Source of the DNA: Octopus sinensis
Lineage: Eukaryota
Assembly: GCF_006345805.1 (NCBI RefSeq)
Contig: NW_021833018.1
Coordinates: forward strand, 62,001-126,000
DNA length: 64,000 bases
Direction of reading: 5' to 3'
Of the stretch, positions 1,950 to 62,198 are shown piece by piece. The notes beneath the pieces are model-generated. The model did no database searches. It saw only the letters and a list, made by a program, of their open reading frames with translations, and was not told the origin of the DNA. The position numbers and the translations under genes are program-made. The stretch's first letter is position 1. Each line of letters begins with the position of its first letter.

Positions 1950-2410
1950 TTTTTTTTTTTTTTTGGAGTAATAAAAGGGTAATTTTTTTTTTTTGTTATT
2001 GTAGTAAATTTATTGTTAATAAACGAAAAAAGTTAAAATGCGCAGCGAATCGACTGGCAATTCCCGCGCATGATGGCCAATGAGATCCTTTGAAAGAGTC
2101 TGATCGACTCGTTGGGATCTTTCGTGGCAACCACGAGCTTAGATCCAAGGCGGAGGAGAAACGATAGCGTCTGCGGACCGATGACTCCAGAGGTTTCCAC
2201 CGCGACTCCTGTGAATAGGTGATTCATTGCCAGGACCCGGTACTTCTTCTGTTTTGTTTGTTCCGCCTGCTTTGCAACTGAGCCCGGTTCCGCAGCGGAG
2301 GCAATTAGATTCTTGGCGGAGAAAGTGTCGGAACAGGTGGCGTCACAGATAAGGCATTTCCCCTTTTCAAACGGGAAGATTGACATGCCATCCGGACGCT
2401 TACCGTTTCA
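1950..2410 (-). mobile_element. CRE-like retrotransposon 3' end (REL endonuclease) with A-rich tail
   Basis: RPDGMSIFPFEKGKCLICDATCSDT..KKY..AVETSG..QRISLAIMRGN; the T-runs at ~1950-1995 correspond to the poly(A) tail. Confidence 0.85.
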
Positions 2411-2419
2411 ATTTATTTC

Positions 2420-3075
2420 CTTCACATGGTAACAGGTCATCCTGTAGTCTGGGCTGAGTGTTCCTTTGATCCTGATTTGTGATGCCCAATTGGGAATTTT
2501 CTGCTACTTGAGTCCAATCTCAGTGCTTAAATTCATGCTATGAAGGTCATTCTCAGATCGACGAACTATAGATATATGCTCTCACGGATGCCTCAATCTT
2601 GAATGAATCCATGTATGTTTATATCACTCTAAAACAATTCCGGCGCAGGATAAAACGACCGGGACATTTTTAGAGTTGCCTCGTGGATCAGATCCAGCTC
2701 AAAAACCAGGAGGTCGTATTTATGAAACTTCTTCACTTGCACTAGCTTCAGTGGGATCTCGTTCTGGCTCCGTATTTAATGACCATTTAGCATTCCTCCG
2801 CACTTTGTTACTAGTCGGTCCACCGTCGTCGACCCTTGTAATCCACAAACACATTTTGGTTCTTCATATATAGGATTGGTTTGCTAAGGAGTTTTTACTA
2901 CACTTTAGCCAACAAGAGGACTCAATCATGTCCACTTTGAATTAATTTATAGTGATATTGTTTGATTTTTTTCTCAATAACAGATGTCGGCAACCTTGCT
3001 GCTTATAGGGCTATTTATGATCCTGATGACAGTTCTAATCCGAGGGGGTTGTGGAATTTGACTTCTGTCAAATAA
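2420..3075 (+). pseudogene. Decayed coding-like remnant of unknown identity
   Basis: Higher GC, broken frames, and an intron-like segment ending ..CAATAACAG followed by DVGNLAAYRAIYDPDDSSNPRGLWNLTSVK*. No family recognised. Confidence 0.25.
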
Positions 3076-8862: not shown

Positions 8863-9535
8863 TAAGACAACGAAAATCGTTAAGTCCCAGCGGCAAGGAC
8901 GCAGTGTGCGTTGCCCCGAACAATGGCCAGACCGATGCGCTGGCGGAACCAGAGGCCCTCCCTCGTGTCCTTGAGCCTCCTCCCAATGGACTGCCCGACC
9001 TCGTTGAGGAACGAGTCAGTCTCCTTTCCCGCAGCTCCAGCGGTCTCCAGGGCGATTGCCGTAACGCGGTAGCGGTCCGCGAGCGAAGAATATTTTTGTA
9101 TTTTGATCTTTTCGGCGTGGTTTGCAGCCGAACAAGGGTTTGCGGCGGAATGGATCCTCGATTTTGAAAAGGTATCCACAACGGTAACATCCCATACGAG
9201 GGCCTTCCCCGACAAGTACGGGAATATTGTCATCCCGTCAGGCCTTTTGCCATCTCCCCGATCGAGTCCGACCGGTTCGAGGAGGCACGAATGGCCCGCC
9301 GATTCGAGACCGGCCTTCACGATTTCATTGAGGGCCTTGTGTCTGTGTTCCCTGCCTGCGCTCCTCTTCCAGGAAAGTGGGTGCAGTCCCTTTTCGTCAA
9401 CGTCCTCACCGCATCTGCAGCGGTGTTTTACGCAAACATCCAGGCCGGTACGGTGAGCGACTCCGATGCGTATGGCAGCATCGTCTAGCCACGTCCCGAT
9501 GCTGGAAAGAGGAAGAGCATTCAGCCAGCTCCCTT
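8863..9535 (-). mobile_element. CRE-like retrotransposon 3' fragment (distinct family)
   Basis: ORF 8880-9320 EPVGLDRGDGKRPDG..WDVTVVDT..ETAG..RGN, with upstream SWLNA and C-CG motifs. Confidence 0.9.
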
Positions 9536-15172: not shown

Positions 15173-15599
15173 TTAATCATCCTTCGAATCAATTGCATCC
15201 TGAACCTTATTCAAAAAGTGAAAAACCTTAAGACGTTCTTCTAATAAGGAAAACTCGGAATTCAAATCGGAAATTGCATTTTTGAGTGCGTCCAAAGGAG
15301 TGTACTCAGAACATGATGTCTGTACTCGAATTATGGTTTCGTAGACAAATGGATGGGGAACTTTATACCCAGCAAAAATTACATTCTTGTCCTTACGAAG
15401 TTGCCTGTTTAAATTAGAAGCTACAAACACTGCTAATAAGTTTCCTAGAGTATGGTCTTCTTTTAGTATTTTGAATATTGCAGCATTTCTTACTTTAGCT
15501 TCAGGTTCCATTGTGATCCTATAACATTTAAATCAGATTTAAAAACTTCTTTTCGCCGTCAAAAAGTAGAAATGATTCAAAAGATGGCGGGGCATTCAT
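15173..15599 (-). CDS. POLR2J: RNA polymerase II subunit RPB11
   Basis: MNAPPSFESFLLFDGEKK|ITME..EDHTLGNLL..VIFAGYKVPHP; introns of 28, 24 and 27 nt. Confidence 0.96.
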
Positions 15600-16901: not shown

Positions 16902-17035
16902 GAGGCACCCTCTATTAAATTTATTTAAATTATTTTGTATTAGTTATAAATTAATTTAAAAATAAATATCGTGATAAACTGTTTCTACTGTTGTTTTTTT
17001 GTCTTTTTATTCTCTTAGAAATAATTCTGAATAAA

Positions 17036-17512
17036 ATGCCAGTTCCTCAATCTTTAGTGATACAAGAGCAGATAAGCTCAAAATCGAACCAAATTGACCG
17101 AGAAAAGGTAATTAAAGTGTATTTATACTATCAGACATGTCCTTCTCTCTTACGAGTTTTTTGCAACATTGCCAGTCACCACCAACTATGTGATTTTGAA
17201 AAAGGAAATCTCCCTTCGAGTGAATATAGAATTTACACGTGGAAAGATGCTAACCTCAAGGAATTGACGTCCCTACTTCGGAAGGTCAAACCTGAAGTAC
17301 GAAGAAGGGACACGGTCATCAACTTTATGGAGGTTTATCCAGACACTAGAAGTCCCCGATTTCAAAGTAGAGACATTGGGACTGTCATTGTTGGGGAGAA
17401 TACTGACGACGACAACGTTACTCTCGATTCCAGAGGATTTCGGATTGGGAATTATATTGACGTTTCTATTACTCCCCCTGGTCATGTTCCTCCAAGAAGA
17501 AGAAGGTTTTGA
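17036..17512 (+). CDS. SAP18: Histone deacetylase complex subunit SAP18 (Sin3/ASAP)
   Basis: IDREK|TCPSLLRVF..IYTWKDANLKELTSL..FRIGNYIDVSITPP; 27-nt intron at 17108-17134. Confidence 0.96.
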   Translation: MPVPQSLVIQEQISSKSNQIDREKVIKVYLYYQTCPSLLRVFCNIASHHQLCDFEKGNLPSSEYRIYTWKDANLKELTSLLRKVKPEVRRRDTVINFMEVYPDTRSPRFQSRDIGTVIVGENTDDDNVTLDSRGFRIGNYIDVSITPPGHVPPRRRRF

Positions 17513-23684: not shown

Positions 23685-25604
23685 CAGTGCTCGTCAAAAA
23701 AAATTGCTCACCAATGTTTATGTCTTTATATAGCATTATTCTGATTTATTTTTTTTGTAAACATCTTTAAGTAGTATTTTATTATTATACCTTAATTTTT
23801 GTAATAAAATTTTTCTTTTTTATTTACAAACTTAAACAAAAACAAAAAATTGCAAGACAAAAAACATTAGCACAAATTTGGAAATCTCATTATCAGTAAT
23901 TAATATGTCCTCCCCTTGCTAAATATAAAGAATAACTTCTTTTTCTCATTGAATTTAATAAGTTTTGTAAAAAACTTTTAGGAATTGACTGCCAAATTTT
24001 CATAATACTTGTCTTTAGATTCTCTTTACTTTTCGGGGGATTTTTAGCTAATTCTCTTTTCATAAAGCACCATATATGCTCTATTGGGTTAAGATCCGGT
24101 GATTGCGATGGCCAATCAAGAATAATATATTTTTTGGTTTCAAAATATGCCTTAACCATACGAGATGTATGGCATGGAGCATTATCCTGTTGAAAAATAA
24201 ACGAGGATAAGCCCATTTTTTCAGCTGATTGGTCCAGATTATTAGACAGTAAATTTATATAATATCCAGAGTTCATAGTTTCTTCGATAAAAACCAAATT
24301 GCCTACACCACTATATGATATACAGCCCCAAATCATAACTCTCCCTACTCCGAACTTAACAGTCGGCAGCAAATATACCCCATTTTTATTCAAAGTTCTC
24401 CGAATTGTCTTAGGGGAAACATCAATATTGAAAGTTTCTTTAGTTTTGTTGGACAAATCCACTGCCAACAATGTAGGATGTGATTCGGTTTCATTACATA
24501 AAAATTGTATTTGGGGGGAACTTAGTTTCGGAAGACGTCCTGAGCCCGGTCTCCGATGCAGTGTTCCAAATTCTCGAAATTTTCGAATATTAAATGAAAT
24601 TGTGGAATACGGCAAATTAAGTATTTTTGAGATTTCTCTGATTGATTTACCCTCTTTAAAGTACGCAATAATCATCCCTTTTTTAAATTCAGTTAACTTT
24701 TTCTTGGGAGAACGTGATATATACAATAACAAGAAAAGTGAGCAATGTTTTTTGTCACGAGATTTAAATTTTGATGCTTTAAATTCCTTATATTGAAATA
24801 AAATCGCATTAATAAATTAATATACTTGAGAATCGCTAAAGATGTGTCCTGGACTAACTTCGCTCATACATTGCAACGCTAAAGATGTGGACTATAGAGA
24901 AGGGTTTGACCCTAGCACCGGAGAAGAGCACCATTTCATGGTTGCGGAGAGGGAGTCGCTATGCGGAGTCTTGTGCATATGCGATGAGTAGCTATGTGAT
25001 GGATCTCTCGAAAAGAAAAAATCTTTCTTACCTGGGAGCAACCATTAACTGTCGTGGCTCGTACGTAGAGCATATAGCAAATCAGAGAAAGAGGAGTGTG
25101 AGGATCCTCAAAAGCTTAACCAGGTTCCATCTGGATCCGGAAACGTACATCTACGTATACAAAACGTGTGTGCAGCCAGTCCTCACATATGGCTACGAGG
25201 GCTGGTACGGTACGGAGGAGAGTGACTACCTGATCGAACAGTTGGAAAAGACAAGACGTTTCGCTATGAAATTGGCTTACGGAGTACAACTTGACGGAAG
25301 GCTAAAAGACTCACAAGAATCCTCTGTGCCCACGATCCGGATGGTCTTGGAGAATTGTCGTCAAACATGACTAGTATTGGGGATACGCATGGAAAGAGAC
25401 ACTTCGGTGCCTTGTTTTTATCTCCCCGCCGATGTTTTTCTTCCTTGTTTTTCTTTTTCTTTTCGCTCAATAAACACTATTCTATTCTATTCTATTCTAT
25501 ACTTGAGAATTAGAATAAAAAATGAAGCGTAAGATTAAATTTTTTATTAATTTGTCAATAAAAGCATGAAAAAATGGCTGAGCAATTTTTTTTGACGAGC
25601 ACTG
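23685..25604 (-). mobile_element. Tc1 (DD34E) element, family A, with internal deletion and a nested LINE
   Basis: TIR CAGTGCTCGTCAAAAAAAATTGCTCA at both ends with TA TSD; near-identical to 47954-49395 but missing ~200 bp that includes the first catalytic D; start ATG mutated to ATA. Confidence 0.96.
24834..25497 (+). mobile_element. 5'-truncated LINE nested in Tc1
   Basis: RT thumb region (YLGATI..YKTCVQPVLTYG), (TTCTA)n tail, 13-bp TSD TATACTTGAGAAT at 24821-24833 and 25498-25510. Confidence 0.92.
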
Positions 25605-26079: not shown

Positions 26080-26550
26080 AAACTTGCGTTTTCTGAGAAA
26101 TAGTTAGTTAAGAGTCCAGAACTGCCCGACTTGTGGGAAGCCGGCGCTCCCAGAGATCCCAAAGCGCTGTGCGTGGTAGCGAAGTTAGTCCAGGACAGGA
26201 AAACAAGTAATGGACGGAGGTTACACACGTGGCAGGGCCTTATGTCTGGTTTTTTCATGAAATTGCGTTCAAGGCAGGAGTGATGTCTGCAGCGCAGTCT
26301 TGCGAGAGTCACTTTCTTGGCAATAGTGATTCTGATCCATCGATTTCCGGGGACGTTCTTGGAGTATTTGGTTCGGTGATATTCTCCAGATGCCCCTCGT
26401 GGAGATAAGAAGGCCTGCTCATTTAAGAAGGCCTGCTCATGTAAGCAGTTATCGATCAAGTCACCACTGTTGACAGGATTCAGTGGGCAACAGAAGTGGT
26501 TCACTCCGTCTGACAAAGATTTGGAAGGATTCCTCGCGGTGGATGGACTA
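26080..26550 (-). mobile_element. LINE 3' fragment
   Basis: TLARLRCRHH..CHVC zinc-knuckle region. Confidence 0.7.
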
Positions 26551-27040
26551 TTACATAATTATCATTATTGAAAGCAAAGAATATAAATTTACCAAGGTTC
26601 CGTGTGTGTCACACGCTTTGAGATTCTATTCACCAAGCTTTTTCACTGGTCTCTGTTTTTGAGACTGCTCGTAGTTCTTCTAGGTCGTCCGCACATTTGA
26701 GTTTTTTTCTAATTTTATTAAGATCCTTGTTTAGAAGAATAGGGAGAGTGACTCTAGGTTTTTTTTGAACGATGTCTTGTTTTAATTGTCAAAGCAATCG
26801 TCTATTTGCGGGAGTGATTATGTCCATTATAAGTACATGCTTAATAAAAAGAAAAAATTTTAAACTTATTTAATTCCAGAGGCGTTAAATTTATCAGATT
26901 CTTTCGCCTACCGGATGCTGAAAAAGATCTTAATTCAGAGAAGTTAGGCAAAATAGTTAAAAATAAGGAAAATAAAAACCGAAAATATCCCAATGTTATA
27001 AGATTTAATTCAATTTAAATAATTAAGAAATCATTTAAAA

Positions 27041-28010: not shown

Positions 28011-31000
28011 CAGTAAAGTCTCTCGAATCCGCCAATTTCGGGGATCGGCAAAATCTGACGGATTCGAGAATTTGGCGGTTTCGAGAGACTTATCGATTTT
28101 TTAATCCATTAATAATTTAAATTATTAAGCCAAAATAATTAATTAAAAACAAAAAAATCAGTAAGTTTCGACTTGTTTCTTCTTAGAGTTTGGATCATTG
28201 AAGATCCAATGTTTTCAATATACTCAAGATTTTCTATATTAAAGAATTCTTATGATTATAGAACTCTTTTAATTTGTTTTTAAAGCAATAAAAGCCTCGT
28301 GAATGGTAACAACTTTCTGACTTTGTTCACACGGTTCTTCGCTAATTTCTTGTTCTATTTTTTCTGAATTATTTAATTCAAGTTCTTCACTTTCATTATA
28401 TTCAATCTCAATATAAAGACTTTCTTCTAACGGATCAATACACTAGGTGCAAAAAAAACCGTTTTTTCGAAATATCAAAAATTTACTATGCAGCTATATT
28501 GTTTTTATTAAAGAATTGAATAATTTATCATTTTTTAACACTAGTTTTATTTTTATATTTGAACTTGTAATCATTTTTACTTAACAAATTATAACTAACA
28601 AAAAATCAAACGCAATAAAAAACCGTTTTATTTTTGATTATTTAAAGTTAGTATTCAATATGGTCCCCTTTTGCCTTAAAAAGCTTTTGTGCTCTATTCG
28701 GCATGCTTTCGATTAATTTTTTTTATAAAACTAATCGGTATTTCGTCCCAAATATTTTCGATTTTTTCTTTCAATTCCGAAACATTCTTTGGATGAAAGG
28801 TGTTTAATTCCCTCTTCATATGAGCCCATATATGTTCGATCGGATTTAAATCCGGTGATTGAGGTGCCCATGGTAAAAGGTTTACTTTATTTTCTTGAAA
28901 AAATCGCATAGTCATCTTGGAAGTATGACATGGTGCCATGTCTTGTTGGAAAATAAAGTCACTAAGCTCAATTTTTTGCAGATTCCCATAAATGGTTACA
29001 TAGTGTGTTGATATAAAGTGCGGAATCATATTCCCGTGTATAAGCAAGCGAAGCCCATTCCGTAATAGAAAAACAGCCCCAGACCATAACTTTCCCCCCA
29101 CCAAATTTTACAGTAGGCGAAAGGTTGCTTTTTTGAAGGCCTGTATTGTTTTTCCGATAACAATATTGCCGTTTTTTAATATTAAAAACTTCGAAACTGC
29201 ATTCGTCACTGAAAATTGTCCTCATCCATTCAGTGTTTGGCACAGTAATGAAATGCTTTGCCATGTATAGCGCGTTTTTCACTATTTATTTTGTTCAATG
29301 ATGGTTTTTTTCTACATACACGAGCATATATTTGCTCCCTTCTTAAATAATTTGCGATGGATCTTTTACCGACTGTTCTTCCGGTTATTTTACGGAGATC
29401 ATTGCTTAAGCAATCAGCTTTTTTTGGGGGGTCCTCTTTAACCAGGTTGAGTAAAATAAGGATATCGTCCTTATTAAGAATTTTTGGTCTCCCCGAACCT
29501 TTCATTCTTTCAGTCGTACCATATTTAATGAATTTTCGGATGAAGTCAGCGATAGTTGATCGCGGGATATTAAGCTCGTTAGATATTTTTTTAGTGGTCC
29601 AATTTAACGCATTCAAGCTTAGAATCTTTCCTTTGTTATTACATCAAGCATTCGTAATTTTATCGAGGGTTAAAATTCTAAAAAAAGTAAAAAATGTCAC
29701 ACTCACCAGAATAAACGGTTTTTTATTGCGCTCGTGTAATTAAAATTTTTAATTTAGACATATAACACAATACAAAAAAAATATAACAAAATTGATTTAG
29801 GGTTAATTTAATGATCCCTTTCGATGTCGACAAAGAAAAATCACAGTTATCTTTGCAAAATATGCCGTATTTAAAAAAACGGTTTTTTTTTTGCACCTAG
29901 TGTATATCCATTTTTTCCAGAAAATTATCATATTTTCAATTAAGGGATTTCATAATTAATATTTTCATTGTTTTGAGTCCATTTTGCATGAATGAAACAA
30001 TTTAAAATTAAGGAACTTTCTATTTTGTTCAAAGCATAATATGTAAATAATATTGAATCTTTTATGCTTAGTTTTTGTGTGCAACATAGGGGTTTGTCCC
30101 AGCTTCAATTTTTTGAATTATATTAAAAAATTTTAGAGAATTGAATTTACATTTATACGATTTAATTATGCCCTGATCCATGGGCTGTAAAAAAGATGTT
30201 GTATTAGGTGGTAGAAATAACATCTAAATTTGTTTTTTTCAATCAATACCTAATGTAAATTTCATGAATTCACCTTATGTGCGGGAGATTGATCTACAAC
30301 AAGCAAAATTTTTCTATCTGTTTTTCGCAATTCCATTTTCCCATTTTAATAGAAATTGATTAAAAATTCTGCTATCCATCCATGCTCTCTTTGAATTTGA
30401 ATATATAACATATTTTTTGATATCGAAATTCTTGAAACATCTTGGATTTTTAAACAACCCAATTAGTAAGGGTGTTCGCTTATCTGTACCGTCAACATTT
30501 GTACATAACATAACAGAAACTCTGTCTTTCAGGATTTTATAGCCAGATTTAATGGTTTTACAAACACTCTTAGACGGTATCATTTTGTAAAATAAGCCAG
30601 TTTCATCGGCATTATAAACATTTGAGCTCCGTAAAGACTGATTTTTTTTTGATTAATTCAATGAAATCTGATACTAAATTAGGGTCAAAATTTGGAGTTG
30701 CAGATTCTCCATGCATATTACGTAATTTCAAACCATTCCTCTTTTTAAACTTAACTAACCACCCTTTGCTTCCTTTGAATTCAGTAATCCCGAGATTCAA
30801 TGCAAAGGCTTTTGCTTTCTCAGTAATAATCCTATCATTTAAAATGGCTCCTTTAAGATCCATTGAATTGACCCAAGGAATAGTATTATCATCGATTACA
30901 GCAAACTTTAAATATTGTTTGCGGGAAATGTCAGATCTTAGATTATGAAACATAATGTTGAATCCTCTTTTACTTTTCAGATCATCAATAAATCGGCGAG

Positions 31001-31346
31001 AAACAGGCAAGTTGTATTTTTTTGAAAAAATCTCAGAAATTTTTAGTGAAGATAATTCATTATTTGTTTGAATAAACTTCAAAATCTCAATTTTTTGATT
31101 GTTCTTTAGTCTTGTACAGTTACGTTTCATTAATACAACAACAAAGACAGATGTAACGTGTTAATAAATTGATTATATATCAGTAAATTTAATTAAAAAA
31201 ATTATTTAAAATTAGGACACATGGCGGATTCATTATAAAAAATATGGCGGATTCGAGAATTTGGCGGATAAGAGAATTTATTAATTATAATTGGCGGATT
31301 CGAGAGTCGGCGGATTCGAGAGTCGGCGGATCGAGAGACTTTACTG
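28011..31346 (-). mobile_element. pogo/Tigger transposon, full length but frameshifted, with nested Tc1
   Basis: TIRs CAGTAAAGTCTCTCGA, TA TSD, subterminal GGCGGATTCGAGA repeats; CENP-B HTH (FKGSKGWLVKFKKR), NADETGLF, LQPMDQG. Confidence 0.95.
28441..29902 (-). mobile_element. Tc1 (DD34E) element, family B, frameshifted
   Basis: TIRs CACTAGGTGCAAAAAAAA..CCGTTTTTT with TA TSD; GSGRP, IFSDE, FQQD, SPDLNPIE. Confidence 0.96.
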
Positions 31347-31364
31347 TATATAGTTTTAATCCTT

Positions 31365-32570
31365 TATTAAAAAAGAAACTAATTAACTAAATAATTCTAC
31401 TAACTAAGTCCAGAGCCTTCGAAGTGAGCAGAAGGTGGCACTCCGCGCACCTCCTCCTCTTCCTCCTCCTCTTCTCTGGCACTGTAGACCTTCGAGAAGG
31501 TGCAGTCCAGCGCCTCTCGCTGACTAAACGTCAGGAAAGGGTTGGATCGGCGAGCATCAAACGAGACACTTTCCAGAGTCCTCTTAAGAACAGTTGACTG
31601 TATATAAGCCTGTAGAGACTTATCTACATCCAACTGTCTTAAGTACCGCTTGTGGTATTTTGTGACCAGTCCATCCCATGTCATCACACACGGGATGACA
31701 TGGACTTTGCACTGGTGCATCAGTCCTAGCTCGTTTGCAAGGAGGTCATCTTCCTCTTTTTCTCCACTTCCACTATCTGCAAACGGTCTAGGCACGTGAT
31801 GCCCACCTCCACGATAACAATCTCCCCGGTGACCTTATCGTGGACCACAATGTCGGGTCTGTTGTGTTGGACAACAATCGAGGTGCGTATGGGGGTATCC
31901 ACCTTAATGCACACCCGCGAGTTCTCACACACCGATTGAACTCGATGGGTTCGCAACACCGCCTCAAGCCATACTTATTGCAGAGCAAAAGATGGAGGGA
32001 CCTCACCACCTCGTTATGCCTCCATGTGTAATCATGGTAAAGCATACTCCCGCACTTCGTGGCTAAATAATCAACGGTCATTGCCTTACTCATACAGTGG
32101 TTACACTGTTTCCGTTGACCATTAAAAAAGTTTCTATCCTGCAAATATGAGAACAACCCCTCTGATCGGGGAGAGTTATTCCCATATTTCAGCCACGTTG
32201 ATGACGACGATATGTCAATGTGCGGGTTGTCCAGGCTGCTAAAGAGAGTCTTGTAAAGGACTTTTAAGTTGATCTTTTTAATTAAAGACTCCTTTTGAAG
32301 TTTGATCAACTCCTTCACATTAACTTGGGTAGCACCTAGACCATACTTAGCCGACACATAGCCTTTTATGGTCCCTAGGTGTGTACCACGCGCTTTTTCA
32401 GCAGCAAGGATGGCAGCCTTCCTTTGGGATACACTCGACCCACTCCACAATGTGTCGTGCATCTTAGTAAGAATTCGCTCACTTAAGTGTACGATGTTAC
32501 TCAATCCACGTCCTAGCTGCCCGCGAGACAAGTACAATCTCTCCTTATTGCTTGCCAACACGTGGACATG
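31365..32570 (-). mobile_element. 5'-truncated R4/NeSL-like REL retrotransposon
   Basis: ERLYLSR..GRGL, QDRN, C..C..YTWRHNEV, RPDIV..EVGIT, DLLANELG..VMTWDGLVTKYHK; 12-bp TSD GTTTTAATCCTT at 31353-31364 and 32571-32582. Confidence 0.92.
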
Positions 32571-33379
32571 GTTTTAATCCTTATATAACTTGCTAGTTTT
32601 AAATTTCGAACAATATTATACTCTCCACATGTGAATGAAGTATAAGTCATCGTGTTCTTCAATATAGTATTCGTTTCTATATATAAACTAGTGGAAAAAG
32701 TTTTGTGGCAGTCTCAAACCGATTATTTGTCTCTCTAATATATAGTAAGGTAAATATTAATCGTATCATTAGTTTTATTCGTTTCCTCATATTTTTCGAT
32801 TTATTTTGTCCGATTTTTTACTATTCCAATTTCAATCATTGAATTGTGGTACCTTTTCAACCGAAAAAAAATTTCATTTCTCGCAATCTGTTCTTACATT
32901 TTTAATCATATTTTGGACTATTAAAAGTCAATTTCAAGTTGATTTCTCTTGTAACTGCCAACTTTCTTGTTTTCCCTATAACCCTAGATGTACTTAGTCG
33001 TTTCTTCTATTAAGTCTATTTCGAATACAAAAAGTTCCTGATTTTTTTACATCCTTAATTATTTCTGCTTATGCGAGTCCAGAAATCCTAAGGTTTAGAG
33101 TTTATAAAACAGTTTCAATTCTTAAATTAATGAAAAATTATTTGAATATGTATGTTTTATAATTTATTTTTAATTTATGATTTTTATTGTCAAGCAAAAG
33201 AGAGCAGAGAAGAAACATTTCAACTACCAATTAAGAAGTTATCTTGTTTTCAAAGATAAAACCGAGATATTTAAAATTTTCAGCTTTTAGAAATTTTTAT
33301 CAATCAATAAAATCTTGGATGTCTTGCAGAAAATCTAAAATAAGTTGGAAATTAAACAGATTACAAACCAAAAACAAGT

Positions 33380-34030
33380 CATCTTAGACGAACAAAGACT
33401 TAAAAGGTAAAACTGTAACCATATTAAAAAACGAATATGACTAATATAAAATCAGAGTTGACACGTCAATTATGACTGAAACGAAAGTTCAATTCAATAA
33501 ACCTGATATTTTCGTTTATGACAAGAGGAAAAGAAAAATCCATTTAATCGAAGTGGGAGTTACCTCGCAAGACCGTTTAAAGCAAGTTGAAGTGGGGAAA
33601 TTTCACAAGTACGACCTGCTTGCAAATGAACTGTCGGTTCTCTATGAAGCAAAAGTGAAGATTATTCCAATTGTCTTGACATGGGATGAAGTTGTCTCAA
33701 AGTTCTTTAAAAGTCATATGGACAAATTATCCATTGAAGAAGGAACGAGGACATACATCCAGTCTTTTGTGCTAAAGAGGACTCTAGAGAGTATGCTTAT
33801 TGAGCACAGACATGGGATAAAAGTGGACAACGAGGAGTACGCCTCTGCAGCCAATCAACTTGCGGAGCTGGCATGTCGTGAGGACACTCAGTTGAACAAT
33901 TACTTTGACGCAGAAATGAAAAATGATGAGAATTTTGTTGCAAACTCTTCTTCCAAGCGAAGAAGAGAAACCACTGACGATCTGGATTCTTAAATAATTT
34001 AAGATAGAATTTACATAATTATTATTAACT
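33380..34030 (+). mobile_element. R4/NeSL-like REL retrotransposon 3' fragment (second family)
   Basis: NKPDIFVYDK..IEVGVT..KYDLLANEL..IPIVLTWD..YIQS.VLKRTLES. Confidence 0.9.
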
Positions 34031-34734
34031 TTGTTTATGTTGTTTAAGAAAAGGTGACTAATATTATTCTTTTAAAACGAGTTTATTATGATAAATAAAT
34101 AGATCCGCAAGATAAAAACCTTATTCGCTGATTCACATTTTTTCAATTTTCCATCATAAATGTTTTATGTGGAAATCTTTTTAACTTTGTTGATAATCTT
34201 TTAATAGTTGAAATTGATTTTGTCGCTGTATTTGAATCATGAAATATTTCACTTAATTAAGTAAAAGTATTATATAAAAGATTAGCTAAATGGCACTTAA
34301 AGTAGATTAGTTGTTATTATGCACATAAACATATTTTGAAAACAGACTTCTTAATATTAAAAAATGAAGTATTATATTTGTTAAAGTAATTTCATGATAT
34401 CAATAATTATTGACATGCGGCGTTATATTAACTTATAAATGCGTAATTTTTCATTTTTTTCCAATTTAGTAAACACCTATACTCATTTTCAATTAAATAT
34501 AAAATTCCAAAATGAAATCAAATGAAAAAAAAGAGTTTTCAAGGTTTGATATAACTGTGTGGATAAAAATACTCTAATATACAAGTAATAAATAAGCGAA
34601 GTACTATTAAATTAATAATTTTTTTCTTCGAGATAAGATCACAAAATTATACTGTTTTGGTTAAGGATTATCATTGTTTAATTTTCTATTAACTAATTCG
34701 TATAACATAAAATATTTTGTTATAATCAATTTAG

Positions 34735-42732: not shown

Positions 42733-42835
42733 TTATTAATCGAACGAATATCTATAGCCATAGTCATAGGCAATACTCTGCCTATCTGCCAATGACGATT
42801 TTTCTCTTGTACTTTTATTAATAAATAAAGACTAC
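42733..42835 (+). mobile_element. ~100-bp CRE-like 3' end (same family as 57560-59400)
   Basis: LLIERISIAIVIGNTLPICQ* plus a 3' UTR and (TAAA)n tail shared with the copies at 56343 and 57560. Confidence 0.85.
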
Positions 42836-42849
42836 TATAATACAAAAAA

Positions 42850-43410
42850 TTATTAATCAATTAAACTTCTCCTTCTGGTTGCTATATTCTCTATTTGCAA
42901 AGTGATTCAGGTAGGCAAGCCCGCCTCTTTCCGTTCGAGTTTGTCTAGTTCAAGCGTCCTTTCCCATGGTTCAACTCTGTTTCTATAAGAAACAATCATG
43001 CTCTCAAGAGTTTTCTTTATAGTGAGAGATTTAATGTATGCGTACGTTTTCTCACTGATGTTAAGCGAATTTGCATATTGTAGAAATTTTTGAGTAACCA
43101 GCGAATCCCATGCTAATACAATAGATACTATTTTCACTTTCGCATGATAGATTAATTCCAGCTCTTTGGATAGCAGGTCATAGTTCCTCATTTTTTCGAT
43201 CTCCACTTGTTGTAAGTTTTGGGAAGATGTTATCCCAACTTCAACCAACAAAATTTGATTTCTTATCTTGTCAAAAACAAACAAATCGGGCTTGGTCCAA
43301 CATACATGTTATACGCCGTAGCTCTTATGGGACACAGGATGTTCACAAATCGAAATAAGATATGTCACCCGTGTGTAAAACTAATCTCCAGTAGTGGTTT
43401 CTCTATTTAT
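42850..43410 (-). mobile_element. R4/NeSL-like REL retrotransposon 3' fragment (third family)
   Basis: KPDLFVFDK..VEVGITS..YDLLSKEL..IVLAWDSLVT..IKKTLES. Confidence 0.88.
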
Positions 43411-44079
43411 TACATTAAGCATCTGTTCGAAGATTGACTCGTGAAGAGATGTGAGCTTCTTCAGGAAAAATCATACACACCATCGCAGCCTGTGGCCTTC
43501 CAATTTGCAAATATTTAATGATCTTTTGAAATAAACATTTCGAGACTTGAACTGTTACACCTTCTACTCCAGTCATCCATTTCTCAATCTCCACAATCTG
43601 ACCGCTCAACTGTTTTTTCTGGCAGATATTCTGCCAATACGTTCCACAATCTTCGAGCCAAGCATACCAACCCACAACAAACCCTTACACGTTTTTTTTG
43701 TTAATCATTCAATTAATTTAAATTATATAGTACCTGTCCTTGCAAAAATGGAGCCTGATTGTGATCATCAAAAAATTGAAATCAGAAATATCTTAGTCCC
43801 AACACAAGACTTTGGTTTATTAATAGAGAATATTTCGGAAATCTTGGCAGGCACAAAACAAACAAACCTTAACGATGTTTATTTTCTCGCGTGTCCTTTC
43901 AAAAAGTCCGAGTTGCAAAACCTTCTGCGAGCTAAGACTGTCGAAATGTTCTTTATTCTGAACTTTTTTCTCTACTTGACTTTTTTCTTAAAAATTGCAT
44001 CCATGTTCCCAAACTATTATATTTATTGAGATGCTCATAATGCTACATACACGATGAAATATTGCATTCTATTAATTGC

Positions 44080-44789: not shown

Positions 44790-44990
44790 TCGGTGAGAGA
44801 TATCATTTGGCGACAATATGCCTACGTTTAAATTTGTGTAAGGAAGTGTTCTAGCCTGGGACTGTATTTCGTCTAAAGGAGTAGGCCAGCTCGTTTTTAT
44901 TGATGGGATTATGGCGGCTGCACATGATTTGCAAATCTTACTACAAAATTTAAATCAGTCCGTGGGAGAAATGAGTTTAACAGCGATGTT
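44790..44990 (+). mobile_element. Tc1 transposase remnant
   Basis: SVLAWDCISSKGVGQLVFIDGIM. Confidence 0.7.
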
Positions 44991-45302
44991 AGTGAAGTCA
45001 TTCACTTCCTACAACAAAATACTCAATGACAGGTTGAGGATGACGGAATCGTACTCACTAAACAAAAATGCTTTAAAAAATATCAAATTGGTGATGGTAA
45101 AAAAAGAGTGCAGTTAGAGAGGTAAGGAATAACTCGAAAAAGAATAAATGCTTACAGCAATAAATAGTTTAATTCTGTCTTGTTATTATTTACATTCGAA
45201 ACTTTTAATTCTTTAATATCGTTAAAATATTTTTTAATTTTTAGTATCACTTCATTCTTTACAATCACTAATTAAAATGATTTTTTACACAGCTAATAAT
45301 TG

Positions 45303-45620: not shown

Positions 45621-46803
45621 ATGTTTCGTGGAGTATGTACTTATTCAAATGTTGCAGGGACTCCGCACTGTCACTCTCATCCCTGGAGACGGAATCGGCC
45701 CTGAAATATCCGCGTCAGTTCAAAAGATATTTTCGGCAGCACAGGTTGATCACCTCTGAGGAGACAGGCCCCCATCGAATGGGAGACTGTGGCAGTGACC
45801 CCCGTCCGATCCATTGATGGATCCTACAACATTCCCAAGGAGTGCGTCGAGTCGATGAGCAGGACGAAGGTGGGACTGAAGGGTCCACTGGCCACGCCCA
45901 TTGGGAAGGGTCACAAGTCCCTGAACCTGCTCCTCCGCAAGTTGGTGTATTGAGAGGAATATTAGGACATTCAATTTATATGCTAACGTGAGACCCTGCA
46001 GATCGTTGGCCGGGTACAAGACGGCTTATGAGAACGTGGATATTGTCACTATCCGTGAAAACACCGAGGGGGAATATAGTGGAATAGAACACGTCGTAAC
46101 TCCGGGGGTTGTTCAGAGTATCAAACTCATTACTGAGTCCGCCTCTCGTCGGGTGGCAGATTTTGCTTTCAAATATGCCCGAGATAACAACCGCAGTGGA
46201 GTGACAGCAGTCCACAAGGCCAATATAATGTTCGTCCGACTATTCACTCGTAGGCGAATGTCTGACGGGCTTTTCCTCAAGTGTTGTCGCAGGGCAGCCG
46301 CCGACAACCCAGACGTTCCCTTCAGCGAGATCTACCTCGACAAAGTCTGTCTGAATGTACTCCTTCTTTTCTACTGTAGATGGTCCAGAATCCTTCCAAC
46401 TTTGATTTGCTGCTCATGCCCAATTTGTACGGGGATATTCTTAGGTTGTTTAATTTTATCACTGCAGTGACTTGTGTGCGGGTCTAATCGGTGGACTGGG
46501 GGTCACTCCCAGTGGCAACATTGGCGAAGATGGGGCCATATTCGAGTCCGTGCATGGAACTGCCCCCGACATTGCAGGACGTGACCTAGCCAATCCCACT
46601 GCTCTCCTCCTGAGTAGTTGCATGATGCTTCGATATCTCAACCTTCCCGACCATGCTGACCGGATCGAACGGGCCTGCTTCCGCTCCATTCAGGACGCCT
46701 CGGTTTCTTTACTTTTCTTACATCTCAGGCTCTCACTAACGACTTGGGAGGTTCTAGTACTTGTTCGCAGTTTACTGCTGCCGTCATCGATCGGCTTGAC
46801 TAA
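45621..46803 (+). CDS. IDH3A: Isocitrate dehydrogenase [NAD] subunit alpha
   Basis: [75 protein letters not shown]; seven introns of 23-26 nt. Confidence 0.97.
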
Positions 46804-46984: not shown

Positions 46985-47790
46985 TTCTCGCAGTGGACCA
47001 TATTTTCTAAAGACTGTCAAGCATGCTTAATTTCTGGTATCTTGATGATATCATTTTGGGTGCTTCAATTGAATCGGTGGTATTGGTATCCGCTCCCTCC
47101 CTTGCTTTCTATCTTCTCTTTCGGCATTGAGAAATTTTGTCAAATCTGTTTTTTTTCCTCTCCTAAACATTAGAACTGACTGAATTTTCTTCTGCACTCA
47201 ACGTTTGGACTGCATCTTGTCTTCCCATCCCCGAGCTGGATTATTTTCAAAAAAGTTGAGATTCCATTCGGTTAAAGAAATTGTGGAATCCCTGAAAACA
47301 AGCGCCAATCAAATCGAACTCGCCTCAATGAACGCGACAGCACAACCACACTTAGGGATCAGGTTAAATGCCATCCCACTATCCTCAGCCGGTTTACTCT
47401 TCGATGATAAGTCAGTTCGACTCGGTACCTGTCTTCCACTCGGAATCCCTTTTTGCAACCCCCACCCGTGCAAGTGTAGGCGTTTGATAGACTCGAATAG
47501 CCTCCTTCCTGCCGTTAAGCGCTGGAAGTACCTAATCCCGTGACACTCCAGTTTAAACAAAGTCGTCAAACGGGGTTTTAATGCCGCAAGCTTCCCTTCG
47601 GTTCTGAAGTGCCGACTCTTTCGCTAAGGGAGCCTTGAATTCCACGGCTTGTCGACCCGATTCGTCAGCCGAGAAGGCCGAATTCGCGAAACTAACGAAA
47701 TAAGAGGATTTACGCGATCGATTTTGCTTTTGGGTAATTGCTATCGAGACTTTCTGTGTTTTCGGGGCCAAGACGCTTGCCGACCAGGAG
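46985..47790 (+). mobile_element. Decayed CRE-like fragment
   Basis: WYLDD-like RT motif (TGGTATCTTGATGAT), LNAIPLSSAG, HPCKC, AIET remnants. Confidence 0.75.
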
Positions 47791-47953: not shown

Positions 47954-49395
47954 CAGTGCTCGTCAAAAAAAATTGCTCAGCCATTTTTTCATGCTTTTAT
48001 TGACAAATTAATAAAAAATTTAATCTTACACTTCATTTTTTATTCTAATTCTTAAATATAATAATTTATTAATGCGATTTTATTTCAATATAAGGAATTT
48101 AAAGCATAAAAATTTAAATCTCGTGACAAAAAACATTGCTCACTTTTCTTGTTATTGCATATGCCACGTTCTCCCAAGAAACAGTTAACTGAATTTAAAA
48201 AAGGGATGATTATTGCGTACTTTAAAGAGGGTAAATCAATCAGAGAAATCTCAAAAATACTTAATTTGCCGTATTCCACAATTTCATTTAATATTCGAAA
48301 ATTTCGAGAATTTGGAACACTGCATCGGAGACCGGGCTCAGGACGTCTTCCGAAACTAAGTTCCCCCCAAATACAATTTTTATGTAATGAAACCGAATCA
48401 CATCCTACATTGTTGGCAGTGGATTTGTCCAACAAAACTAAAGAAACTTTCAATATTGATGTTTCCCCTAGGACAATTCTGAGAACTTTGAATAAAAATG
48501 GGGTATATTGTCGTGTAGCAAAAAGAAAGCCATTGCTTTCTCAAAAAATATCATTTCGAGATGGTCTGCGTCACTACGATTTTTATCGATATCTGATAGT
48601 ACATGGAAATCGGTGATATTCTCAGATGAGTCAATGTTCGATGTTTTTAACAACAGAAAACATCAGCTTGTTTACAGAAAAAATAAAACGGAGTTAAAAA
48701 ATGCACATTTGCTGCCGACTGTTAAGTTCGGATTAGGGAGAGTTATGATTTGGGGCTGTATATCGTATAGTGGTGTAGGCAATTTGGTTTTTATCGTAGA
48801 AACTATGAACTCTGGATATTATATAACTTTACTGTCTAATAATCTGGACCAATCAGCTGAAAAAATGGGCTTATCCTCGTTTATTTTTCAACAGGATAAT
48901 GCTTCATGCCATACATCTCGTATGGTTAAGGCATATTTCGAGACCAAAAAATATATTATTCTTGATTGGCCATCGCAATCACCGGATCTTAACCCAATAG
49001 AGCATGTATGGTGCTTTATGAAAAGAGAATTAGCTAAAAATCCCCCGAAAAGTAAAAAGGATCTAAAGACAAATATTATGAAAATTTGGCAGTCAATTCC
49101 TAAAAGTTTTTTACAAAACTTAGTAAATTCAATGAGAAAAAGGAGTTATTCTTTATATTTAGCAAGGGGAGGACATATTAATTACTGATAATGAGATTTC
49201 CAAATTTGTGCTAATGTTTTTTGTCTTGCAATTTTTTGTTTTGTTTAAGTTTGTAAATAAAAAAGAAAAATTTTATTATAAAAATTAAGGTATAATAATA
49301 AAATACTACTTAAAGATGTTTACAAAAAAAATAAATCAGAATAATGCTATATAAAGACATAAACATTGGTGAGCAATTTTTTTTGACGACCACTG
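47954..49395 (+). mobile_element. Full-length Tc1 (DD34E) element, family A, with one frameshift in an A-run
   Basis: TIRs with TA TSD; ORFs 48161-48616 and 48508-49188 overlap; IFSDES, FQQD-x34-E. Confidence 0.97.
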
Positions 49396-55120: not shown

Positions 55121-55799
55121 GGATTTTTACTATTGCTTTTTGTTGAATTACTTTTCCGAGTTTTTTGGTACTCAAATTGTTTATTAATTCTTATTTATTA
55201 ATAAAAGTAAGGAAAAAAAGTTCACATAGTATAAATTTTCATTTCAATTAATTCTTCATTGAAATAAATAAACCGATAAACTCGGCGAAGCTTACTCCCA
55301 CGTCTCGTGATTATAAAATCAACTGTCGTAACTTTTCTATGTCGTTAAACTGTTTTCGCTGACTGTTGCAAAAGTTTCTATTTCAAAATATGAGAAAACC
55401 CTTCTTGACCAAGAATATAAACATGCAGGGTACAGAAAGAATGTTATAAAGGACTTTTATGTTAATTTACTTATTTAAGGATTCAGTTTAGGCTTTTACA
55501 TCAGACCAGGTAGTACCTAAATTAACTGATAGTCCGTAATAATCGCCTGATTTTCCTATGAAGATGCTAGTCTTCCTTTACGATACATCTGACTACCTTA
55601 AAATTTTCATCTCAGTCAAATTTTGCTAAATTATAATAAAAAGTCCCGATTGGATAAAATAATTAAATAAATCTCAAAGTTTGCATAGACCGTAACTAAG
55701 ATTACTAAATTCATCCATTTTATCCATACAAAATACTTTTTAAAACTATCAAAATTGTGTTATTTTCTAGAAAAGAAAAAAGCTAGATGTTAGCTAGAG

Positions 55800-59400: not shown

Positions 59401-60649
59401 ATAAAAGGCATTTAGATTGTCAGAAGCATTAATAATGCTTATCCCTTTCCCTTGAATTGAAAGATTCAACTCGTTAAGGTGATTGAAAATGTCAGCTAAA
59501 TATGGCACAAAAATAACAAAACCAGGAGATTTGAAACAATCAAGTAGCTCAGAGTTTTTTTCAAATAGAAATTGCTTGATTTCAAGTCTGAGAATATAAA
59601 ATCTTTGTTAAAACACGACCTCTTGAAAGTCATCTAACATCAGTATGATACAAAAGAACAGTGGCGTCAGCATCATAATAAATACATAATGCTTTGAACA
59701 ATCTATGATTCAAAGCTCTTCCTCGAATAAAATTCACAATTTATGCTTCGGAAGCGTTCCTTTAATATCATACCTGACCCTTTAAGCCTTCAAACATTCG
59801 AAATCATTTCCTGAACGTTTTATTCCCTCGTGCATAACCTAAAAATGCTTGTTCAGCGTTTTATTCCCCCAATCAGGAAGCACTACTCTATGACCATTTT
59901 CAAGAAATTTTTGGTCATTCTATTTAATAGTATGAGTCATTCTATTTGAATTTATTCGTCATATTAAACATTCAACTTCTCTGTATAAATTAACTGATAC
60001 GATTTTTCATGGTTTATGTTAAATCTTTGTTTTTTAATAATAAATTAATTCTTTGATTTATGATAAAAAATTAGGAAGATCAAGAAAGTCAAAACGCCGT
60101 CATTCTATTCTGCTGCGGCGAATAAGGTTTTTGAAATAAGAGTGGATACGACAATCATAACTGATACTGCTGTCAAAAACAAGCTAAGTATCTTTGTGTG
60201 ACAAGACATGAAGCACGATCACGCTCACCGAAATTGGAATAAACTCAACAAAATCAAGTTGCTTGAAACAGGTTGAAAAAAAACATGTATAAATATGACT
60301 TTTTATAAAGTTAATTATTCATGGTGAAAAAGTGAGAATAACTCCTTGTGTGGTTAAATGAAACCGGATTGTCTCAAAATACTACAAAAGTCACTTGGAT
60401 TTTCTTTGCATAGAAAAAGGAACCAAATCATATACCTAGTCAGTCGTGCTTCGGAAGACATTAGAGAGCATGCAAGTGTATAGAAAATAACAGATAGATC
60501 TGGATTGCAGATAGAGGACCAAAGACAATTATCTATCCTGGTTTCTCTAGGAAGAGAAGGTTGTGCACAACGTGGACTCAGACAAATAAATTAACCAGTT
60601 TGATAGGAAAAGATTATTTAAATAATATTCATATTTTATTAATTTAGTA

Positions 60650-61474: not shown

Positions 61475-62198
61475 TATCTTCTTCATTTCTCTTATTTTTT
61501 GAAACTTTTTTTTTATAAATACTGTTTTTATAAAATAATTATAACCTATAAATGCTATTCCTGCTTCAATTTTATAAGAACATTTTTGCCAAAGAACCGG
61601 AGAGAATGACTAAAGTTTTTAGATGAACAAGATTATCAAAATAGCTATTTATCTCTGTGACATAGGTCAAGCTTGAAGCACTGACTAGGCATATTAATAA
61701 TGTGAGCGATTGGTAAATATAAGACTATATAGTGTGTATTTTACCTTTCCTGCCACGACCTGTCATATGGGATCACAATGACTGTTCTGTGTGGATATAG
61801 TTATCTTAAATGATTTAATAAAGTTTGGACTGTCCAATTTGTTATTTCTTGGTTTCTAACTTTCTAGCTGACTTATTAAAATATTTGTTCAGGAATTAAA
61901 ATTAAAATTTTCTGAATAGCTAGAATTTATGATTAGTGGTATCATTAAGAAAATTATATCTCCGTAAGCTCAATTTTCTACAAGTGGTTCACTAGAATGA
62001 GGAAACTTTTTAATTTAAAGCACAAACAATGTTTTTTGACTCCGAAATCTCTCAATTGAATATTGGTATGCAATAAAGTTCCAAGAAATAGTTAATTATG
62101 CATTTCTTCAATATAGAAAGAGAAAATGCGTGTTAAGAATAATTGGCCTTATAAAGGTAACAGTACTATATAGATCAGCGAATTATATTATTCATAGA

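What the first reader, a model, noticed from the sequence alone, without database searches (positions are those of the whole stretch)
31353..34030. Microsporidian-type R4/NeSL retrotransposons that have transposed in an animal genome
Seen: three distinct families (31365-32570, 33380-34030, 42850-43410) share PD..EVGIT..KYDLLANEL..IP.V.TWDG.VTKY..AYIQS.VLK.TLES. One has a perfect 12-bp TSD and they lie between intron-rich animal genes, so they are integrated rather than contaminating contigs. From recall, not a search: this C-terminal signature characterises non-LTR elements abundant in microsporidian genomes, and microsporidia are known hyperparasites of dicyemids and other parasites. Inference: repeated horizontal transposon transfer between a microsporidian and this animal. 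The AT-rich Tc1, pogo and Ginger elements may share that history.
Basis: partly seen in the sequence, partly recalled or inferred. Interest (0 to 1): 0.7.

Follow-up and report, generated by a model that had tools for sequence, protein, structure and literature searches.

The report
Microsporidian-type retrotransposons in a dicyemid
These are three broken copies of recently multiplying jumping genes in a tiny-intron animal, likely a dicyemid parasite sequenced along with an octopus, and their closest named relatives come from microsporidia, which likely means the elements crossed between unrelated parasites long ago.

Summary
Confirmed, with corrections. The three stretches are truncated copies of single-ORF non-LTR retrotransposons (RT, CCHC, restriction-like endonuclease). 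E1 has a 12-bp and E2 a 10-bp target-site duplication. Intact, about 3.5-kb copies of both families exist elsewhere in G000.

The window is not DNA of the 2.7-Gb host. Its genes have 23-26-nt introns and the host has its own long-intron orthologue, so this is likely a co-assembled dicyemid. The elements are integrated in that animal.

Trees place them inside a long-stem clade (100/100) of microsporidian, piroplasm, Mikrocytos and unnamed metagenome elements, far from the host's own R4-like LINEs (27-28% identity). They form two lineages (E2+E3; E1). AU tests reject their monophyly (p 0.010, 0.003) and microsporidian monophyly (p 0.0002 or less).

Identity to named microsporidia is only about 46%, so any transfer is ancient, not the predicted high-identity event. 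No donor is sampled and direction is partly unresolved. NeSL membership fails; R4 membership is likely but untested against named references. The extension to Tc1, pogo and Ginger is unsupported. Best reading: old horizontal transfer from microsporidia, probably twice (0.62).

The parts
31353..31364 (.). Target-site duplication, 3' side of E1 (12 bp)
31365..32570 (-). E1: 5'-truncated copy (last 1.2 kb: end of thumb/linker, CCHC, endonuclease, short AT-rich 3' UTR), two frameshifts; lineage B; GC 47%
   Evidence: 96.5-97.4% to 19 other copies; intact family members L095, L096, L105
32571..32582 (.). Target-site duplication, 5' side of E1
33438..33447 (.). Target-site duplication, 5' side of E2 (10 bp)
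33449..34054 (+). E2: 5'-truncated copy (endonuclease domain, C-terminal tail, 3' UTR and a 26-nt non-family tail); lineage A
   Evidence: 95.7% to intact L031; 150 scored protein matches in G000
34055..34064 (.). Target-site duplication, 3' side of E2
33366..34078 (.). Stretch, including all of E2, that is absent from a second allele; one contig joins 33365 to 34079
   Evidence: run X1 record 5, 1109 nt, depth 70 like neighbouring unique contigs
42817..43654 (-). E3: older, internally deleted copy (endonuclease core 42817-43294; RT remnants 43310-43654); lineage A
30314..31347 (-). Context: decayed pogo/Tigger-type DNA transposon (HTH_Tnp_Tc5 + DDE_1); by eye its end lies about 6 bp from E1's duplication
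45621..46803 (+). Host marker: IDH3-alpha-type gene, 337 aa, seven GT-AG introns of 23-26 nt
   Evidence: a contig of run X4 lacks 121 nt, the sum of the five introns it spans
60094..60532 (+). Further decayed fragment of the same clade (endonuclease region)
55288..55540 (-). Further decayed fragment, DNA-level similarity to E1
2665..2862 (-). Further decayed fragment of the same clade
26433..26552 (+). Fragment matching the N-terminal part of a lineage-A ORF
44964..45149 (+). Fragment matching the C-terminal part of a lineage-A ORF

Best explanation
The three stretches are truncated insertions of single-ORF non-LTR retrotransposons whose families still have intact, near-identical copies in this tiny-intron animal (likely a dicyemid), and the two lineages they belong to likely entered it long ago by horizontal transfer from microsporidia. 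Mechanism of spread (anatomy shown, chemistry inferred from R2-group elements): a transcript of about 3.5 kb with a very short 5' UTR encodes one 1150-1170-aa protein; its restriction-like endonuclease would nick AT-rich DNA without a fixed target; the RT would copy the RNA from the nick; early stops leave 5'-truncated copies between 10-18-bp duplications. History (inferred): an animal R4-like element was established in microsporidia, where it diversified. Microsporidia living inside dicyemid cells would have passed on at least one and probably two lineages. Lineage A (E2, E3) then radiated inside the animal to families about 50-80% identical; lineage B (E1) stayed smaller in diversity.
For: Anatomy: intact ORFs with RVT_1, C-X2-C-X8-H-X4-C and a PD..E endonuclease motif. 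Same-family intact copies differ by dS about 0.01 (2 pairs). Duplications of 12-18 bp in 6 of 12 E1-family loci (one doubtful), of 10-14 bp by eye in 9 of 9 full-length lineage-A copies whose ends could be set, and of 10 or more in 3 of 12 truncated E2-family loci. Between families dN 0.12-0.15 against dS 1.1-3.6. Host: seven 23-26-nt introns; among 51 animal genomes such introns were found only in dicyemids and myxobolids (PMC13644364); a ROR/HR3-like receptor; a second IDH3-alpha with long introns on the 174-Mb contig C3; D. japonicum has the same repeat classes, Dong-R4, CRE, TcMar, Ginger (PMC6736024 Fig. S2 labels). Integration: an intact copy (L032) shares contig C6303 with a tiny-intron IDH3 subunit gene, and microsporidia lack the TCA cycle (PMC3614468); an allele without E2 joins the two flanks; run X7, from another sample and study, holds related genes at 92-94% and both element families. 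Affinity: 45-48% identity over about 800 aa to Enteropsectra and Vairimorpha elements against 27-28% to the host's chromosomal R4-like elements; a shared C-terminal signature and N-terminal R.PRxGW motif; clade support 100/100 with Dictyocoela and one Enteropsectra lineage branching outside the dicyemid rows (98-100 support); AU rejects one dicyemid clade (p 0.010 LG+G4; 0.003 mixture) and one microsporidian clade (p 0.0002; 7.5e-5). Contact: Dicyemida is a recorded microsporidian host phylum (PMC8262960).
Against: No close donor exists in the databases searched: best 54% (unnamed P0051), named microsporidia 45-48%, so the usual dS test of transfer cannot be applied. Outgroup R4-like elements are 43-46% identical to the host's copies, so 46% alone is not exceptional. 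The nearest relatives of both lineages are mostly unnamed metagenome proteins of unknown organism. The clade also holds piroplasm, Mikrocytos, mite, wasp and moth labels. The sister of lineage A is unstable: Enteropsectra P0020 (81/50 and 93/77), but under the mixture model the two dicyemid lineages form a grade below a microsporidian-plus-Theileria subclade (81/81), which fits one entry plus a back-transfer equally well. AU groups were named after the first tree was seen. The stem is very long (0.75-1.54), so the root inside the clade is uncertain. The host identity rests on gene structure, not on a phylogeny or rRNA.
Confidence: 0.62

Rival explanations
1. Horizontal transfer is real but the route differs: an unsampled third eukaryote gave elements to both, or dicyemids passed one lineage on to microsporidia and piroplasms after a single entry.
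For: The mixture-model tree puts P0019, lineage B with P0051, and lineage A as successive branches below Enteropsectra P0020, Vairimorpha, Hamiltosporidium and Theileria (81/81). Closest relatives are unnamed. The clade is in three eukaryote supergroups.
Against: Dictyocoela and an Enteropsectra lineage branch outside all dicyemid rows with 98-100 support. Five microsporidian genera carry the clade. The LG+G4 trees join lineage A to an Enteropsectra element.
Confidence: 0.25
2. Vertical inheritance: an old R4-like branch survived in dicyemids and was grouped with microsporidian elements by long-branch attraction or by shared ancient paralogy with loss elsewhere.
For: All carriers are fast-evolving parasites; the stem is 0.75-1.54 long; divergence is saturated; taxon sampling of protein databases is thin (no orthonectid, flatworm or named dicyemid row was returned).
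Against: Attraction does not create 46% identity against 27%, nor shared motifs (53 of 83 against 0 of 37). The grouping holds under a site-heterogeneous model (100/100). Two dicyemid lineages interleaved with microsporidian ones would need two paralogues in the opisthokont ancestor, and in the ancestor of Apicomplexa and Rhizaria, lost nearly everywhere else.
Confidence: 0.1
3. Artefact: the elements come from a microsporidian sequenced with the sample and were chimerically joined into animal contigs.
For: The assembly already holds a second organism. No read spanning an element-flank junction of E1, E2 or E3 was seen, because only short contigs were available.
Against: Duplications of flanking host sequence at many independent loci; an empty allele joining both flanks of E2; E1 abuts a pogo end and decayed fragments are scattered through the window; the same families in an independent sample with related animal genes; no intact TLC/NTT gene in G000, the only match being a decayed copy.
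Confidence: 0.03

Closest known systems
LINE/Dong-R4 elements of microsporidia (Nosema bombycis, PMC3614468 Table 2; Microsporidia sp. MB, PMC13174016)
   Same: Same clade by tree with Vairimorpha, Hamiltosporidium, Astathelohania, Enteropsectra and Dictyocoela proteins; same signature; dispersed and abundant, as reported for MB.
   Different: Here in an animal; two lineages; 45-48% identity only. The papers give the RepeatMasker label and no phylogeny in the passages read; I did not align the N. bombycis or MB elements themselves.
LINE/Dong-R4 class in the Dicyema japonicum repeat landscape (PMC6736024, Fig. S2 labels and Table S3)
   Same: Same repeat classes as the window (Dong-R4, CRE, TcMar, Ginger); multi-copy RT ORFs noted.
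   Different: No origin or microsporidian link is discussed; 'microspor' has 0 hits in the supplement text held. The figure itself could not be seen.
Microsporidia-metazoan transposon transfers (Parisot et al. 2014, PMC4202319: Merlin into Schmidtea, piggyBac with insects)
   Same: Microsporidia as likely donors to a spiralian animal; bidirectional exchange.
   Different: Those cases are DNA transposons at 70-98% nucleotide identity; this is a non-LTR retrotransposon, ancient, followed by a large radiation in the recipient.
LINE-like elements of Babesia and Theileria equi (PMC9141347)
   Same: T. equi and Babesia proteins fall in the same subclade; patchy distribution noted by the authors.
   Different: The paper has 0 occurrences of 'microsporid' or 'horizontal'; the link seen here is not made there.
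Animal R4/Dong/Rex6 clade, including cephalopod Dong-R4 (PMC8967140)
   Same: Single ORF, RT plus C-terminal CCHC and restriction-like endonuclease, no N-terminal zinc finger; nearest outgroup in all trees.
   Different: 27-30% identity; different endonuclease signature; no fixed target (R4 rDNA and Dong TAA targets are recalled, not from a call).

Membership tests
Non-LTR retrotransposon with restriction-like endonuclease (R2 group) | Single long ORF with non-LTR RT | tested here: met
   1154-1236-aa open frames; RVT_1 over cut-off; PDB hits are L1 ORF2 and R2 proteins
Non-LTR retrotransposon with restriction-like endonuclease (R2 group) | C-terminal CCHC knuckle and PD-(D/E) endonuclease | tested here: met
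   Motifs read; weak BsuBI_PstI_RE hint in 2 of 8 proteins. Activity not tested.
Non-LTR retrotransposon with restriction-like endonuclease (R2 group) | 5' truncation, fixed 3' end, target-site duplications | tested here: met
R4/Dong clade | No N-terminal zinc finger, Myb or protease domain (recalled) | tested here: met
   No zinc-finger pattern in the first 330 aa of 7 of 7 intact ORFs; Pfam over cut-off gives only RVT_1
R4/Dong clade | RT phylogeny with named R4, Dong or Rex6 references | tested here: inconclusive
   No named reference was returned; the clade emerges from unnamed R4-like rows and abundant host-chromosome elements, which papers label Dong-R4 in cephalopods
R4/Dong clade | Target specificity for rDNA or microsatellites (recalled; not universal) | tested here: not met
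   Flanks differ from copy to copy and are AT-rich
NeSL clade | N-terminal zinc finger and, in NeSL-1, a Ulp1-type protease (recalled) | tested here: not met
NeSL clade | Insertion into spliced-leader or other small-RNA genes (recalled) | tested here: not met
   Unrelated flanks at the loci printed; flanks were not scanned against Rfam
Horizontal transposon transfer | Element is integrated in the recipient genome | tested here: met
   Duplications, empty allele, tiny-intron genes on the same contigs; no junction-spanning long read seen
Horizontal transposon transfer | Tree conflicts with species tree | tested here: met
Horizontal transposon transfer | Patchy distribution | tested here: inconclusive
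   Named hits are limited to microsporidia, piroplasms, Mikrocytos, four arthropod labels, bacterial MAG labels and this assembly's label; protein databases under-represent transposons and many hits are unnamed
Horizontal transposon transfer | Element divergence lower than host-gene divergence (high identity, low dS) | tested here: not met
   45-48% aa to named microsporidia; synonymous sites are saturated even between the two resident lineages; host-gene comparison could not be run
Dicyemida (host identity) | Introns mostly under 30 nt | tested here: met
   7 of 7 introns 23-26 nt in one gene; dicyemid median 27 (PMC6543705)
Dicyemida (host identity) | Placement by 18S rRNA or phylogenomics | not tested
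   The rRNA family search returned no answer twice; no named dicyemid sequence was available

The most novel reading that the evidence does not exclude
One retrotransposon clade has been relayed among unrelated parasites of three eukaryote supergroups (microsporidia, piroplasms, Mikrocytos) and an animal parasite. The dicyemid was not only a recipient but a hub: it took the element from microsporidia, amplified it, and passed a lineage back that now dominates Vairimorpha, Hamiltosporidium and piroplasm genomes. A decayed NTT ATP/ADP-translocase gene on the same contig suggests this animal's germ line takes up DNA from intracellular microbes more generally.
Probability: 0.15. Interest if true: 0.8.

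Novelty: new variant of a known kind. Interest (0 to 1): 0.52.

Why it matters
Documented microsporidia-animal transposon exchanges are DNA transposons. This would be a non-LTR case, across kingdoms, that went on to become a major, recently multiplying part of an animal genome, and it links the unexplained patchy LINEs of Babesia and Theileria equi to the same clade. It makes a concrete test of whether hyperparasitism moves retrotransposons. It also shows that public proteins labelled as octopus are likely parasite elements, which would mislead any transfer screen into reporting an octopus-microsporidia exchange. The signature motif gives a simple marker for screening other assemblies.

Tried and rejected
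1. C12470 as an allelic contig of the window: only the IDH3 region matches (93%), so it gave no empty-site test.
2. Run X8, listed under the same sample as X1, had no depth in the bins over most of E1 and over IDH3 and only 41-44-nt matches among the pieces listed. This fits a host-only library, but lack of cover in contigs is not proof of absence, so it is not counted as evidence.
3. No RNA holder was listed. X4 looks spliced and holds an E1-family contig, a hint of transcription only.
4. Summed depth over E1 and E2 (about 10,000-39,000 against about 70 on unique flanks) suggests many copies but is no copy number.
5. Search for a co-assembled microsporidian: PTP2 0 matches with no working control; the microsporidian SSU rRNA search gave no answer; TLC/NTT gave one decayed locus. 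Not a proof of absence.
6. Organism of the nearest unnamed relatives: cluster look-ups gave no names; the metagenome scan gave 3 loci of 2.4-3.8 kb, little more than the element. Names for the outgroup clusters could not be obtained.
7. The 61-row careful mixture tree did not finish; only its quick version is used, plus finished 36-, 47- and 23-row trees. Rows dropped: 6 of 187 for short coverage, 51 of 181 as near-duplicates; later subsets were chosen by hand.
8. Tc1 (48556-49185): top clusters Chordata, Mucoromycota, Arthropoda, Nematoda, Rotifera; none microsporidian; a lead only. Pogo and Ginger were not tested.
9. Pfam found no family for the endonuclease ORFs themselves.
10. Earlier-scan look-ups by words and by sequence found nothing.
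11. Donor search for the NTT pseudogene in bacterial genomes gave 5 weak loci, none informative.

Full report
Observation. The three stretches exist. E1 (31365-32570, minus) lies between two exact 12-bp words at 31353-31364 and 32571-32582, their only occurrences in the window. Nineteen other E1-family copies, 96.5-97.4% identical, run on upstream where E1 stops and share its 3' end. E2 begins at 33449, is 95.7% identical to an intact copy, and has a 10-bp duplication at 33438 and 34055. In 1461 random AT-rich pairs a shared word of 10 or more arose in 2.5% and of 12 or more in 0.2%. E3 is older: best copy 90%, internal deletions, core 42817-43294, no duplication found. E1 has two frameshifts, so the quoted signature is not in one frame. 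The three are 44-51% identical over the endonuclease. Five more decayed fragments lie in the window.

What the elements are. The E2 protein gave 150 scored matches in G000 out of 22,885 first-look candidates. Fourteen of 15 fetched stretches held ORFs of 1177-1236 aa and one of 950 aa; 3 of 12 E1-family stretches held 1154-1159-aa ORFs. Full-length elements are about 3.5-3.6 kb with a very short 5' UTR. They carry RVT_1, a CCHC knuckle and a PD..E endonuclease motif, and no N-terminal zinc finger in 7 of 7. Duplications of 12-18 bp were found in 6 of 12 E1-family loci, one doubtful, of 10-14 bp by eye in 9 of 9 full-length lineage-A copies with definable ends (four more share a larger repeat), and of 10 or more in 3 of 12 truncated E2-family loci. 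Flanks differ among copies. Intact copies within a family differ by dS about 0.01; between lineage-A families dN is 0.12-0.15 and dS 1.1-3.6. This is the anatomy of recently multiplying elements that insert by target-primed reverse transcription; the chemistry is inferred from R2-group elements.

Whose genome. G000 is 2.72 Gb, and sources label its proteins as an octopus. The window's IDH3-alpha gene has seven GT-AG introns of 23-26 nt, and a contig of run X4 lacks exactly 121 nt across five of them. A second IDH3-alpha with long introns lies on the 174-Mb contig C3, 57-73% identical by exon. Among 51 animal genomes such introns were found only in dicyemids and myxobolids (PMC13644364, passages); the dicyemid median is 27 nt (PMC6543705, passages). 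A ROR/HR3-like receptor and the repeat classes listed for Dicyema japonicum (PMC6736024, passages and supplement text) fit a dicyemid, the kidney parasite of cephalopods. This is inference from gene structure; no rRNA or phylogenomic test succeeded. Earlier notes on this genome reached the same reading, which is not independent evidence. None of the 150 and 134 best element matches lies on C1-C30, whereas an outgroup R4-like query hits mainly those contigs.

Integration. Besides the duplications: an intact copy shares C6303 with a tiny-intron IDH3 subunit gene, and microsporidia lack the TCA cycle (PMC3614468, passage). One X1 contig joins 33365 to 34079, an allele without E2; it also lacks about 85 nt of flank, so it may be a deletion rather than the exact pre-insertion state. 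Run X7, another sample and study, holds the neighbouring genes at 92-94% and both families. No junction-spanning long read was available.

Relatives. Outside this assembly the best hits are unnamed metagenome proteins (48-54%), Enteropsectra and Vairimorpha (45-48%), a mite label (41-43%) and Theileria equi (41-44%); the host's chromosomal elements give 27-28%. Named hits also include Hamiltosporidium, Astathelohania, Dictyocoela, Babesia, Mikrocytos, four arthropod labels and bacterial MAG labels. A full HMMER scan shows the same fall-off to 26-32% outside the group. The C-terminal signature marks 53 of 83 clade rows and 0 of 37 outgroup rows; an N-terminal R.PRxGW motif is shared by the dicyemid, Hamiltosporidium, Enteropsectra and T. 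equi ORFs and absent from the 5 octopus rows printed.

Trees. FastTree on 130 rows, IQ-TREE LG+G4 on 36 and 47 rows and a mixture model on 61 (quick) and 23 rows all give one long-stem clade at 100 support. Dictyocoela and one Enteropsectra lineage branch outside the dicyemid rows. The dicyemid rows form lineage A (E2, E3 and many families, 100/100) and lineage B (E1, with unnamed P0051, 100/100). AU tests reject A+B as one clade (p 0.010; 0.003) and the named microsporidia as one clade (p 0.0002; 7.5e-5); the groups were named after the first tree. Against a simple story: the sister of A is weak, and the mixture tree makes B and A a grade below a microsporidian-plus-Theileria subclade (81/81), so one entry plus a back-transfer is as parsimonious as two entries. 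Also, 43-46% identity occurs between outgroup elements and the host's copies, so the identity alone does not prove transfer.

Known and unknown. Dong-R4 LINEs are reported in N. bombycis, Microsporidia sp. MB (PMC13174016, passages), D. japonicum and cephalopods (PMC8967140, passages). Microsporidia-to-animal transfer is reported for DNA transposons (PMC4202319, passages). Piroplasm LINEs are reported as patchy without a donor (PMC9141347, passages). PMC7313128 (passages) does not mention Dong. Dicyemida is a recorded microsporidian host (PMC8262960, passages; Czaker 1997 seen only as a reference title). No paper linking dicyemid LINEs to microsporidia turned up in the open-access searches; subscription papers and Repbase reports were not searched. 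Defining features of R4 and NeSL are recalled; two searches found no usable source.

Verdict. Real, integrated, recently multiplying R4-like elements in a likely dicyemid, nested among microsporidian elements in two lineages. Old horizontal transfer from microsporidia 0.62; transfer by another route or direction 0.25; vertical descent 0.10; artefact 0.03. The predicted high identity is not met, NeSL is not met, and the extension to DNA transposons is unsupported. A side result, a decayed NTT translocase gene on the same contig, deserves its own follow-up. New variant of a known kind; interest 0.52.

Noticed in passing
G000:C9489:41545-42993 (-), about 19 kb before the window; L137:2545-3993: Single-copy, intronless-looking, decayed NTT/TLC ATP-ADP translocase gene (stops and frameshifts; a CRE-like fragment lies at its 5' end). 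It is the only PF03219 match in G000; 4 of 4 pieces match TIGR00769; the best PDB match is a 586-aa ADP,ATP carrier protein 1 (9j3n; chlamydial by recall), ahead of the plastid carrier. No microsporidian NTT was available to compare; the motifs look bacterial by recall. Animals are not known to have this family (own knowledge), so it is a likely old gene transfer from an intracellular microbe. Not checked with reads.
   Followed up: partly
(e.g. P0001-P0006, P0415): Many public proteins labelled as an octopus are members of these families; none of the 150 and 134 best matches in G000 lies on contigs C1-C30. They are likely mislabelled parasite elements.
   Followed up: yes
P0058, P0072, P0098, P0101, P0109: Theileria equi, Babesia and Mikrocytos elements fall in the same clade as the microsporidian ones; the piroplasm rows nest in the Vairimorpha/Hamiltosporidium subclade (99-100 support).
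   Followed up: partly
P0039, P0422, P0055, P0074, P0110: Wasp, moth and mite labels inside the clade; the Polistes protein pairs with a Vairimorpha apis protein (95/97). Contamination or further transfers; the Blomia one is on an 8.8-Mb scaffold.
   Followed up: no
L067 (G000:C12470:327516-329078): A second tiny-intron IDH3-alpha copy, 93% identical in DNA and not syntenic with the window: a duplicate or a second parasite species in the assembly.
   Followed up: partly
L031, L035, L036, L037, L040, L041, L045: Full-length copies have a 5' UTR of only about 20 nt and carry variable 3-25-nt extra tails between the conserved ends and the duplication; L037 and L045 share both extras, suggesting flanks copied from a source element.
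   Followed up: no
L033, L034, L043, L044: One intact family copy sits inside a larger 7.7-kb unit repeated at over 99% on four contigs.
   Followed up: no
window 2033-2407, 7164-9533, 47184-47543, 58390-58914: Several fragments of a second endonuclease-bearing LINE type (CRE-like by recall), plus Tc1 copies at 23893-24816, 28694-29643, 48110-49188 and 57839-58225.
   Followed up: no
window 62040-63908 (+): ROR/HR3-like nuclear receptor gene; also SAP18 (16955-17512), RPB11 (15173-15532) and a CYFIP-like gene near 40341, the first two with apparent tiny introns.
   Followed up: partly
L002: A short telomere-like repeat run sits at an internal deletion joint of an E2-family copy.
   Followed up: no
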